From Candidatus Micrarchaeota archaeon (GTDB lineage: Archaea; Micrarchaeota; Micrarchaeia; Norongarragalinales; Norongarragalinaceae): DNA of 34,498 nucleotides. The position numbers were made by a program, and so were the translations under genes. The notes below the pieces were generated by a model that saw only the letters and a list, made by a program, of their open reading frames with translations, did no database searches and had not been told where the DNA came from. Where the stretch lies: assembly GCA_037444485.1 (NCBI GenBank), contig JBBIMI010000009.1, positions 1 through 34,498 of the forward strand, written 5' to 3'. Shown here in pieces: positions 18,127 through 33,094 of this stretch (positions are counted from its first letter, which is position 1; each line of letters begins with the position of its first letter).

Positions 18127-18978
18127 TCAAACTATTTCCGAACATAGTTTTTGAATGACTTGCTGGCAACCTCTCCAGAAGGAAGGCAACTCGTTCTTCA
18201 CGAAGCCTTGGTAAGAGTCAGAGTACGCGAGGGTCAAGTGCTCGCCGGTTTTCTTGAATTCGTTTCCATACTCGTCGTAAATCTTTCGAATTATGTCGCG
18301 TTCGAAGTCTTTCTGCAGCAAGGACGGCTTGCGCAACAGCAAGTAGTCCGCTTGCCGCAGCGTGTTCACGTCCAAGTTTGAAGAGTTTTGGGAAACGAAT
18401 AGCACGCTCAAGTCCTTATGCCGCGAAATCAAGAGCAATTCACTCAACAGCTTGTTTGCGTTGCTGAAAGCCTCGCGGGAAGAAAACAAGATTCCACCCT
18501 CGTCAACAAGCAGAAACGAACAATTCTTGACGCTGTTCAAATCGTTGACGCAAGTAATCCATTGCGGGAGGGTTTCTTCGTTGAACCCCATTGCTGCCAC
18601 GCTGCGTCCTTTAGCGCGCGCGTTTTCAAGCAGTCGCAGGCCAAGCGCGCTTTTGCCGCTTCCCCGCGCGCCGATTATTATTCCAATTAAGTTTTTAGAG
18701 GTCAAGAGTTTTTGCTGGAACTCGCTTAGATCGCCGGAAATGTTTTTGACTTCAACAAGCGGCTTGAACGAAGCACTAACCTTCGGTTTTTTGCTTTCAA
18801 GCGCTTTGCGTTGCGCGAACAACTTTCCGTGCGAGAAGAGAAACGAAAAGATTTTCTTGAAAACCCGAAACAAGGCGAGCAGCAGCTTCCACAAGATTTT
18901 AAACAATATTTTAATGAAGCCCTTGATTAAGAACCACGCTGCGCCGAGGACCTTGCGCTTTAACGACTTTTTAGCCAT
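18127..18978 (-). CDS. Membrane-anchored P-loop ATPase, Zot/FtsK-HerA-like
   Basis: Amphipathic basic N-terminus; GARGSGKS, LLVDEGG and SRHK.LSVLFVSQ...LRQAD motifs. The last ~14 codons may be frameshifted. Confidence 0.72.
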   Translation of the reverse strand: MAKKSLKRKVLGAAWFLIKGFIKILFKILWKLLLALFRVFKKIFSFLFSHGKLFAQRKALESKKPKVSASFKPLVEVKNISGDLSEFQQKLLTSKNLIGIIIGARGSGKSALGLRLLENARAKGRSVAAMGFNEETLPQWITCVNDLNSVKNCSFLLVDEGGILFSSREAFSNANKLLSELLLISRHKDLSVLFVSQNSSNLDVNTLRQADYLLLRKPSLLQKDFERDIIRKIYDEYGNEFKKTGEHLTLAYSDSYQGFVKNELPSFWRGCQQVIQKLCSEIV

Positions 18979-19013: not shown

Positions 19014-19193
19014 CGCCCTGGGCAGGACTCGAACCTGCGGCCTACTGATTTCAGCCCGTTGCCTTTTTTTTGAACGGCTAACAGTTTCGAACCCCCGCTT
19101 TTCGCTCTGCTTTTCGCTTTTTTTTGTGGGACAGTCGCTCTGCCGTTCAGCGCTCCAAACTTGTGGTTTGAAGCGAAGCTGAGCTACCAGGGC
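19014..19193 (-). tRNA. tRNA-Asn(GUU) with three introns (D-loop 17/18, anticodon stem 30/31, canonical 37/38)
   Basis: Acceptor stem GCCCUGG/CCAGGGC + G73, D stem GCUC/GAGC, T arm GCAGG-UUCGAGU-CCUGC. Removing 19145-19176, 19086-19131 and 19050-19078 gives a 73-nt tRNA with anticodon arm ACUGA-CUGUUAA-UCAGU. CCA is not encoded. Confidence 0.9.
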
Positions 19194-19215: not shown

Positions 19216-19425
19216 TTTTTAAATAACCTACGCTTAAAGGCGCGGGATTCCGCTGCCAGGCTTGGCGGCTGGCGCCACTACATCGCGCGAAACGTGCGCG
19301 AAACGCGGCGTCGAGGCCAGCGCCGCCCACGCGAACGAGGCCAGCCGCCCCTGCAAAATAACTGAAGCGAAATAAATAGGATTGATTCGTCCCGCGACTG
19401 AACTAGCGGATTTCTCAACCAAACA
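19216..19425 (-). mobile_element. Non-coding IS200/IS605-like miniature element / structured RNA, copy A
   Basis: Colinear by eye with 32872-33094; hairpins at both ends; no transposase ORF. Confidence 0.68.
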
Positions 19426-19441
19426 CGTTTAATAAAAACTT

Positions 19442-32555: not shown

Positions 32556-32846
32556 ATGCGTTTCAAAATCTCGTTGTTTCTCTTCATCGCAGCTGCAGCT
32601 GCCTTCTTCCTGCAAATAGAATGGTTTTTCCTCACGCTTGCAGTATTCGCCGTGGTTGTCGCAATCGCTGAAGCTAGTTCAACACCGCAAGCTGTCCAAC
32701 GCGAATTAGTTGGCGAAGAGGAAGCGGCGCGTCAAACTAGGCAAGCCCAGCAAGTAGTCATGCTGCAACAGCCTTCCTTAGGCAAAGAGTTTTACGAAGA
32801 GCTTGTTTCAGGAATAGTTAACAGCGTGTTCGGAAAAAACAAATAA
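32556..32846 (+). CDS. Hypothetical membrane protein (TM hairpin + amphipathic C-terminal helix)
   Basis: Same layout as the two preceding ORFs. Confidence 0.72.
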   Translation: MRFKISLFLFIAAAAAFFLQIEWFFLTLAVFAVVVAIAEASSTPQAVQRELVGEEEAARQTRQAQQVVMLQQPSLGKEFYEELVSGIVNSVFGKNK

Positions 32847-32871
32847 CATGGTTTTTTTAAAAGTTTTAATA

Positions 32872-33094
32872 TGTTTGGTTGAGAAATCCCGCGAGTTCAG
32901 TCGCGGGATGAATCAACCCTAATTGTTTCGCTTCAGTTGTTTGCCAGTTTTTTGTAGGGGCTGCGCGGGCTCGTTGGCGTGAGCGACGCGAGCCTTGACG
33001 TCGCGCGTTACGTGCGCGCGGAGATAATGACGCCGCCAGCAAACGCTAACAGCATACTGAAATCCTACGCCTTTAGGTGTAGGTTATTTAAAAA
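32872..33094 (+). mobile_element. Non-coding IS200/IS605-like miniature element / structured RNA, copy B
   Basis: Left hairpin GGTTGA-GAA-ATCCCGCGA-GTTCAG-TCGCGGGAT-GAA-TCAACC; right hairpin CCTACGCC-TTTA-GGTGTAGG; colinear with 19216-19425. Confidence 0.7.

What the first reader, a model, noticed from the sequence alone, without database searches (positions are those of the whole stretch)
32872..33094. Dispersed ~220-bp structured element (two diverged copies) resembling a protein-free TnpB omegaRNA / IS605 miniature
Seen: 32872-33094 (+) and 19216-19425 (-) align end to end by eye, from TGTTTGGTTGAGAAATCC to GTAGGTTATTTAAAAA. Both keep terminal hairpins, and an internal stem shows a compensatory change (GCGACG/CGTCGC versus GCGGCG/CGCCGC). 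Both have an AT-rich TATA-like segment upstream. Known: IS200/IS605 ends are subterminal hairpins, and the right end encodes the omegaRNA scaffold whose 3' flank is the TnpB guide. Inference: these are either non-autonomous elements mobilised in trans or stand-alone guide-RNA scaffolds with different flank-derived guides, which would imply a trans-acting RNA-guided system.
Basis: partly seen in the sequence, partly recalled or inferred. Interest (0 to 1): 0.75.

Follow-up and report, generated by a model that had tools for sequence, protein, structure and literature searches.

The report
Gene-less IS200 mini-transposon, not omegaRNA
The two look-alike 220-base stretches are copies of a gene-less remnant of a small jumping gene (IS200 type) scattered many times through this small archaeal genome, made of the DNA hairpins its transposase likely recognises plus a scrap of the transposase gene itself, so they are an ordinary genomic passenger and not a guide RNA.

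Summary
In detail: the copies are 73% identical (E 8e-31), with true bounds 32870-33091 (+) and about 19219-19427 (-). The genome has 34 left-end and 29 right-end matches and 15 paired short copies of 164-244 nt. The same ends flank IS200 tnpA pieces at contig breaks, where the right end follows the tnpA stop codon directly. The interior, including the 'compensatory' stem, is the decayed 3' end of tnpA (catalytic-Tyr helix); that stem is deleted in 9 of 16 copies. The 'TATA-like' segment is the TTAA target (29 of 33 left ends), matching an AAAT DNA guide by the IS608 rule, which also predicts the end in 16 of 18 related tnpA loci. No transposon TnpB or IscB was found; the only TnpB-like gene is a CRISPR Cas12f2-like gene without these ends. 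No Rfam RNA family matches the element, and 0 of 25 TnpB-family loci from relatives match it. Verdict: a PATE (non-autonomous IS200 derivative), likely moved in trans by TnpA; not an omegaRNA. The scan reached this reading before on other pieces of this genome. Low interest.

The parts
32866..32869 (+). TTAA target (left cleavage site CL) of copy A; host flank, not element
   Evidence: TTAA at this offset in 29 of 33 left ends, local background 4%
32870..33091 (+). Copy A, whole mini-element (222 nt)
   Evidence: boundaries from comparison of all copies
32884..32887 (+). Left DNA guide GL (AAAT), predicted to pair with TTAA
   Evidence: sequence; IS608 rule (PMC5934647 passages); inferred function
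32877..32918 (+). Left-end hairpin: inner stem 32888-32907 inside outer stem 32877-82/32913-18
   Evidence: DNA fold -14.9 kcal/mol; 4 of 7 inner pairs with two-sided change
32921..33059 (+).
   Evidence: score 81 vs shuffle max 32 against C17 tnpA tail; translation VSDASLDVARYVR vs AGDADLKTVARYVR; Tyr aligns with the C-terminal Tyr of solved Y1 transposases
33060..33063 (+). Right DNA guide GR (AAAT)
   Evidence: sequence; guide/end covariation in 16 of 18 related loci
33064..33083 (+). Right-end hairpin, 8-bp stem, TTTA loop
   Evidence: 4 of 8 pairs with two-sided change
33088..33091 (+). Right cleavage site CR (TTAA), last bases of the element
   Evidence: TTAA ends 20 of 26 right ends
19429..19432 (-). 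TTAA target of copy B (one extra A before the usual first base)
19219..19427 (-). Copy B, whole mini-element, more decayed; GL AAAT 19413-19410, GR GAAT 19250-19247, imperfect right hairpin 19246-19227, CR TTAA 19222-19219

Best explanation
Both stretches are copies of a gene-less deletion derivative (PATE) of a tnpA-only IS200-type insertion sequence of this genome, likely copied to new TTAA sites by transposase supplied in trans through single-strand 'peel-and-paste' transposition. Shown: structure = left end (about 50 nt) + last ~45 decayed codons of tnpA + 32-nt right end; same ends on tnpA pieces; TTAA before the left end and as last bases of the right end; many copies at unrelated intergenic sites, some 94-97% alike. 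Inferred from IS608: a TnpA dimer binds the two subterminal DNA hairpins on the exposed single strand, the four bases 5' of each hairpin (AAAT) pair with TTAA to set the cuts, the element leaves as a single-stranded circle and joins 3' of another TTAA, without target duplication (the TTAA on both sides only mimics one). Inferred: one founding deletion, then amplification and further internal deletions. No RNA function is needed.
For: 34 left-end/29 right-end hits, 15 pairs. Y1_Tnp pieces next to the same ends: 7 contig ends carry tnpA tail + right end, 8 carry left end + leader or 5' tnpA; stop codon directly abuts the guide. Complete left end-tnpA-right end elements without tnpB in relatives (G027, G033 and others); G040 TnpA passes NF033573 (95 bits vs cut-off 55) and matches ISHp608 transposase (E 9e-9). 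All 15 interiors outscore 200 shuffles against the tnpA tail; interior profile hits tnpA 3' ends in 3 of 30 foreign tnpA loci and 0 of 25 TnpB-family loci. TTAA at 29 of 33 left ends vs 4% local background, at 20 of 26 right ends. Guide predicts the end tetranucleotide in 16 of 18 related loci with a detectable hairpin (30 examined), permuted mean 4.9, 0 of 10000 as high. Two-sided changes concentrate in terminal hairpins. Precedent: PATE HqIRS71 keeps part of a C-terminal coding region (PMC3119063 passages).
Against: No intact full-length tnpA is assembled in G000: C26 and C27 tails are frameshifted, C19/C3/C12 5' parts carry stops; only C17 (80 aa) and C24 (24 aa) pieces are open, so a present-day source of transposase is inferred. 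No empty site or circle junction seen. 11 of 26 right ends, copy B included, have guide GAAT, which by the strict rule predicts TCAA, yet none ends so; this needs a G-T wobble or means decay. 4 of 33 left ends lack TTAA, among them C47, the closest relative of copy A. Copy B's match to the tnpA tail is marginal on its own (35 vs max 33), and shuffles kept only base composition. Offsets 4-6 in the guide test were chosen after seeing the loci and kin are not independent.
Confidence: 0.93

Rival explanations
1. The copies are immobile relics: each is a full-length IS200 that inserted and then lost its middle in place, with no transposition of the short form.
For: Copies are heterogeneous (A vs B 81% in global alignment), many hairpins are decayed, and other one-off deletion forms exist (C7:39191-39380; ~50-nt end fusion at C6:21438).
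Against: The 16 aligned short copies share the same left junction into the tnpA tail and shared derived changes absent from the parent; pairs at unrelated sites are 94-97% identical (C47/A, C3a/C3b, C6/C35, C26a/C11c), which needs copying of the short form.
Confidence: 0.04
2. The elements are stand-alone omegaRNA scaffolds whose right flanks serve as guides for a TnpB-like nuclease in trans.
For: PATEs of other organisms are said often to encode omegaRNAs (10.1101/2023.03.14.532601, passage). Copy A folds well as RNA. One internal pair does switch A-U/G-C/G-U among 7 copies. A TnpB-family protein (Cas12f2-like) exists in the genome, and the assembly is fragmented at repeats (95% complete).
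Against: Parent is tnpA-only with 32 nt after the stop; interior is tnpA sequence; stem region deleted in 9 of 16 copies and imperfect in 4 of the other 7; consensus fold only -5.2 kcal/mol with no pairs in the central region; no Rfam family at gathering score or near it; the Cas12f2-like gene lies after cas2-cas4 with its own CRISPR repeats and no element ends; no IscB RRXRR hit; TTAA+flank matches elsewhere for 4 of 25 flanks vs 11 of 75 shuffles; 0 of 25 TnpB-family loci of the order match ends or interior.
Confidence: 0.02
3. The elements are REP-like repeats kept by a domesticated tyrosine transposase (RAYT) for a host function such as terminator or promoter supply.
For: 15 of 17 copies are intergenic by crude ORF calls; copy B's right end lies 25 nt before a tRNA gene, at TATA-box distance.
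Against: The TnpA scores as IS200 (95 bits, over cut-off) and not as RAYT (34.5 vs cut-off 80); it is multi-copy and flanked by the same ends; no orientation bias to neighbours; right ends are not enriched before gene starts (2 of 24 vs 5.1% background, p 0.35).
Confidence: 0.01

Closest known systems
PATEs (palindrome-associated transposable elements) of Haloquadratum walsbyi, especially heterogeneous PATEs and HqIRS71 (PMC3119063, passages read)
   Same: No terminal inverted repeats, near-terminal palindromes, too short for a transposase, multi-copy and heterogeneous, derived from an IS200/IS605 element by core deletion, retains a disrupted C-terminal coding piece; a ~50-nt terminal-only form also occurs here.
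   Different: Parent here is tnpA-only (IS200 group) rather than tnpB-bearing; target TTAA; host is a 0.96-Mb archaeal genome; no strain comparison is available to show strain-specific insertions.
IS608 (ISHp608) of Helicobacter pylori, model of IS200/IS605 single-strand transposition (PMC3201880, PMC5934647, passages read)
   Same: Subterminal hairpins, tetranucleotide guides 5' of each hairpin, target left outside the left end and cleavage site as last bases of the right end; TnpA homologous (E 9e-9).
   Different: IS608 has tnpA+tnpB, GL AAAG/CL TTAC and GR GAAT/CR TCAA; here both guides are AAAT and both sites TTAA, no tnpB; the residue four after the Tyr is Asp instead of Gln.
IS200 group (tnpA-only) elements, NCBIfam NF033573
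   Same: The parent element in this genome and relatives: left end, ~137-aa Y1 transposase, right end 10-32 nt from the stop in 18 of 30 loci.
   Different: The window copies lack a functional gene.
TnpB omegaRNA / omegaRNA-bearing PATEs of Geobacillus stearothermophilus (10.1101/2023.03.14.532601, passages read)
   Same: Right end with hairpin followed by variable flank.
   Different: No cognate tnpB, no scaffold-length conserved region before the right end, interior is tnpA remnant and freely deleted.

Membership tests
PATE (non-autonomous IS200/IS605 derivative) | No terminal inverted repeats; palindromes close to both termini | tested here: met
PATE (non-autonomous IS200/IS605 derivative) | [quoted passage not shown] | tested here: met
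   164-244 nt, frames broken
PATE (non-autonomous IS200/IS605 derivative) | Ends shared with a TnpA-encoding IS200/IS605 element | tested here: met
PATE (non-autonomous IS200/IS605 derivative) | Inserted 3' of a fixed 4-5-nt target read by internal DNA guides | tested here: met
   TTAA at 29 of 33 left ends; rule met in 16 of 18 related right ends; caveat 11 of 26 own right ends have GAAT with a non-TCAA end
PATE (non-autonomous IS200/IS605 derivative) | No target-site duplication, shown by an empty site | tested here: inconclusive
   no empty site found; TTAA on both sides fits CL=CR, and relatives with other guides end in TTAT/TCAT/TCAC
PATE (non-autonomous IS200/IS605 derivative) | Mobilisation by TnpA in trans | not testable with these tools
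   inferred from 94-97% identical copies at unrelated sites; no intact tnpA assembled
TnpB omegaRNA (stand-alone) | Cognate tnpB/iscB with matching ends in the genome | tested here: not met
   fragmented assembly is the caveat
TnpB omegaRNA (stand-alone) | Conserved, covarying scaffold of about 150-200 nt upstream of the right end | tested here: not met
   central region deleted in 9 of 16 copies, no consensus pairs there, tnpA-derived
TnpB omegaRNA (stand-alone) | Match to described RNA families (HEARO/sot types; that Rfam holds them is recalled) | tested here: not met
   only chance-level hits far below gathering scores
TnpB omegaRNA (stand-alone) | Discrete transcript ending 16-20 nt beyond the right end | not testable with these tools
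   no RNA holder listed
Classical MITE (terminal inverted repeats, target duplication) | Terminal inverted repeats | tested here: not met
   left and right termini are not reverse complements; hairpins are subterminal
REP/RAYT | Associated transposase of the RAYT class | tested here: not met
   NF047646 34.5 bits vs cut-off 80; NF033573 95.3 vs 55

The most novel reading that the evidence does not exclude
Read-through transcripts of these IS200 miniatures have been co-opted as a genome-wide library of stand-alone guides (right-end hairpin plus flank) for the genome's Cas12f2-like protein, whose third RuvC acidic residue appears replaced by Asn, giving an RNA-guided binding system fed by a tnpA-only transposon.
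Probability: 0.02. Interest if true: 0.75.

Novelty: new member of a known kind. Interest (0 to 1): 0.1.

Why it matters
Little: it is a clean example of a known kind of gene-less mobile element. Its small use is as a natural data set for the IS200/IS605 DNA-guide code (AAAT-TTAA, AAAA-TTAT, GAAA/GATA-TCAT, GAAG-TCAC across 18 related loci) and as a warning that hairpin-rich PATE interiors that look like omegaRNA scaffolds can be decayed tnpA coding sequence. With both cleavage sites TTAA the element mimics a target-site duplication and could be misfiled as a MITE.

Tried and rejected
RNA evidence: no RNA holder listed; this is no evidence either way. Contigs of the one DNA holder X1 (possibly the source sample): a joint 33092 to 32866 at 90% likeness might have been a circle junction, but it had chromosomal depth, carried another copy's 1-nt deletion and vanished at 97%; taken as another locus; no joint skipping the element. 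Empty site by synteny: the HAD gene before copy B has orthologues in 17 of 40 relatives; in the 9 fetched none has the element behind it, but none has the tRNA either, so these are not true empty sites. Flank-as-guide test: 4 of 25 flanks vs 11 of 75 shuffles had a TTAA+14-nt match with up to 2 mismatches (one flank too short was skipped). TATA-box regeneration idea (right end TTATTTAA restoring a promoter, prompted by the tRNA 25 nt behind copy B): 2 of 24 right ends vs 245 of 4762 intergenic TTAA sites have a co-oriented ORF start 18-36 nt downstream, p 0.35 (tRNAs not counted): rejected as a general rule. Rfam at relaxed thresholds: only chance hits. A weak stop-riddled NF040570 hit at G000:C4:40075-40239 (E 0.012) was not followed. 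Rows dropped: 1 of 34 left-end hits (E above 1e-5); 3 of 29 right-end hits (reverse match within one hairpin; the two C44 head-to-head hits); 12 of 30 tnpA loci without an 8-bp hairpin by my filter (several have inserts in the hairpin or end at a contig break); only 30 of the loci from 53 matching genomes were fetched. No structure prediction or large protein search was needed. Host taxon was not determined by a tool; gene content (FttA, DUF2070, intron-bearing tRNAs) says archaeon, and 'Micrarchaeota' comes only from earlier AI notes.

Full report
Observation. The two stretches exist as described. Copy A and copy B align at 73.1% over 227 columns (blastn E 7.9e-31); the local score of 161 compares with a mean of 17 and a maximum of 28 in 500 shuffles. 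As RNA, copy A folds better than all 200 shuffles (z -3.87) but copy B does not (z -0.62). Both are intergenic: A follows a short ORF of no Pfam family (32556-32846), B lies between a HAD hydrolase gene and a tRNA gene.

Copy number and bounds. The window is contig C9 of a 961,727-base, 58-contig genome. Iterated profiles of the two ends give 34 left-end and 29 right-end hits on 27 contigs; 15 left/right pairs span 164-244 nt. Lining up the flanks shows sharp bounds: TTAA stands 3-4 nt before the model start in 29 of 33 left ends (local background 4.1%, maximum 12.5%), and 20 of 26 right ends stop at TTAA (4 TAAA, 1 TTAG, 1 TAAT). So copy A is 32870-33091 and copy B 19219-19427/8. Some copies at unrelated sites are 94-97% identical (copy A and C47 97%).

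The parent. Pfam Y1_Tnp hits four places in the genome, all next to the same ends. Seven contig ends carry a tnpA tail followed by the right end, and eight carry the left end followed by leader or 5' tnpA sequence: a near-identical full-length element collapsed in assembly. In these tails the stop codon is followed at once by AAAT, the 8-bp hairpin and TTAA, 32 nt in all, so there is no tnpB and no room for a scaffold. No intact full-length tnpA is assembled: C17 (80 aa) and C24 (24 aa) are open, C26 and C27 are frameshifted, C3, C12 and C19 carry stops. DNA relatives occur in 4 of 40 related genomes; G027 holds a complete left end-tnpA-right end element and G040 a 137-aa TnpA that passes NF033573 (IS200/IS605 transposase, 95.3 bits, cut-off 55) but not the RAYT model, and matches solved Y1 transposases including ISHp608. 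A phylum search found this TnpA in 53 of 301 genomes, G000 included; in the fetched loci the right-end hairpin starts 10-32 nt from the stop in 18 of 30.

The interior is tnpA. Every one of the 15 interiors outscores 200 base-shuffled versions against the C17 tnpA tail (copy A 81 vs maximum 32; copy B only 35 vs 33). One frame of copy A reads VSDASLDVARYVR against AGDADLKTVARYVR of the parent; that Tyr aligns with the C-terminal Tyr of solved Y1 transposases, which in IS608 is the catalytic residue on helix alpha-D (PMC5934647, passages). The segment is deleted in 9 of 16 aligned copies; in the 7 that keep it the six pairs are complete in 3, have one mismatch in 3 and two in 1. One pair does switch (G-C 4, A-U 2, G-U 1), so the compensatory change is real, but it is a single pair, whereas 4 of 7 and 4 of 8 pairs of the terminal hairpins change on both sides. 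RNAalifold finds -5.2 kcal/mol and no pairs in the central region. A profile of the interiors hits the tnpA 3' end in 3 of 30 foreign tnpA loci and none of 25 TnpB-family loci from the same order; the end profiles also hit none of the 25.

The guide code. In IS608 four bases 5' of each hairpin pair with the cleavage sites: GL AAAG with TTAC, GR GAAT with TCAA, guide positions 1 and 2 pairing crosswise with site positions 2 and 1 (PMC5934647 and PMC3201880, passages; pairing of position 4 follows from these two examples and from recall). Here both guides are AAAT, which predicts TTAA at both ends, as seen. Across relatives the guide predicts the terminal tetranucleotide in 16 of 18 loci (AAAT-TTAA, AAAA-TTAT, GAAA/GATA-TCAT, GAAG-TCAC); permuting guides gives a mean of 4.9 and never 16 in 10000. 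Caveats: spacing of 4-6 nt was set after seeing the loci, kin are not independent, 12 loci failed my hairpin filter. Against the strict rule, 11 of 26 right ends in this genome, copy B among them, have GAAT yet none ends in TCAA; a G-T wobble or decay must be assumed.

Test of the omegaRNA idea. PATEs can carry omegaRNAs for a TnpB in trans (10.1101/2023.03.14.532601, passage), so this was tested. PF07282, PF01385 and NF040570 find one clear gene, a 569-aa protein on C11 (NF040570 also a stop-riddled E 0.012 trace on C4); RRXRR finds none. That protein is closest to Cas12f2 (NF049972, 268 bits, below the 450 cut-off), follows cas2 and cas4 and precedes two CRISPR repeats at the contig end; no element end is within 5 kb. 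Rfam gives no match to the element at gathering score and only chance hits at relaxed thresholds. Right flanks find TTAA-led matches no more often than shuffles (4 of 25 vs 11 of 75). No RNA run is listed, so transcription is untested. The assembly is 95% complete and breaks at repeats, so a collapsed tnpB cannot be excluded absolutely.

Mechanism. Shown: anatomy, copy number, parentage, target and guide correspondence. Inferred from IS608: TnpA from a full-length copy binds the two DNA hairpins on single-stranded DNA, cuts 3' of each TTAA as set by the AAAT guides, releases a circle and inserts it 3' of another TTAA with no duplication. Inferred from shared junctions and near-identical pairs: one founding deletion that fused the left end to the last ~45 codons, amplification in trans, then further deletions. 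Not shown: an empty site, a circle, current activity.

Comparison. This meets the definition of a PATE (no terminal inverted repeats, near-terminal palindromes, too short for a transposase, ends shared with IS200/IS605 elements); HqIRS71, which keeps disrupted C-terminal coding sequence, and 52-bp terminal-only forms are direct precedents (PMC3119063, passages; PMC4810608, passages). It fails the tests for a stand-alone omegaRNA, a classical MITE and REP/RAYT. I read only search listings and the passages cited, no supplements; I make no claim that this particular family is absent from print. Earlier unchecked notes of this scan on other pieces of the genome reached the same reading; my reading was written down before I saw them and they are not counted as support.

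Verdict. Real, correctly spotted, ordinary: a new member of a known kind. Interest 0.1.

Noticed in passing
window 19014-19193 (-): tRNA gene with three apparent introns (one in the D arm, 46 nt at 19131-19086, 29 nt at 19078-19050). Rfam finds it, ARAGORN misses it; after removing the inserts in a script ARAGORN calls Asn(GTT) in 79 of 88 D-arm boundary trials. It starts 25 nt after the right end of copy B, whose last bases sit at TATA-box distance.
   Followed up: partly
G000:C11:27508-29214 (L001:34-1743, L042): 569-aa Cas12f2-like gene after cas2 and cas4, with a ~360-nt non-coding stretch and two CRISPR repeats at the contig end. The third RuvC acidic position reads Asn where the solved TnpB 9nzp has Asp, while the first two motifs look intact: possibly nuclease-dead.
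   Followed up: partly
G000:C17:3-242; L008; L011: TnpA subfamily has Asp four residues after the Tyr where solved Y1 transposases have the metal-binding Gln.
   Followed up: no
G000:C6:21438-21486 (L041): About 50-nt terminal-only element: start of the left end fused to the right end at the shared AAAT guide, TTAA on both sides.
   Followed up: partly
G000:C7:39191-39380 (L035): A second, independent deletion type: full left end and leader up to the tnpA start codon fused to the last ten codons and a right end with a different, fully compensated hairpin. The end of C25 repeats it with the same flank, probably assembly redundancy.
   Followed up: partly
G000:C44:3182-3219 and G000:C31:3363-3651: Two right ends fused head to head into a palindrome (C44), and a copy whose left end is inverted relative to its interior and right end (C31).
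   Followed up: no
G000 right ends (11 of 26), including window 19250-19247: Right guide GAAT paired with a TTAA-type end in many dispersed copies, suggesting a tolerated G-T wobble in the guide/cleavage pairing.
   Followed up: partly
window 18127-18978 (-): 283-aa ORF with a weak, threshold-level Pfam Zot-type hit (E 0.0004); likely an ATPase-like domain.
   Followed up: no
L045 (G033) and L046 (G027), right ends: The right-end hairpin carries a 45-50-nt GC-rich insert of nested hairpins while guide and end still follow the rule.
   Followed up: no
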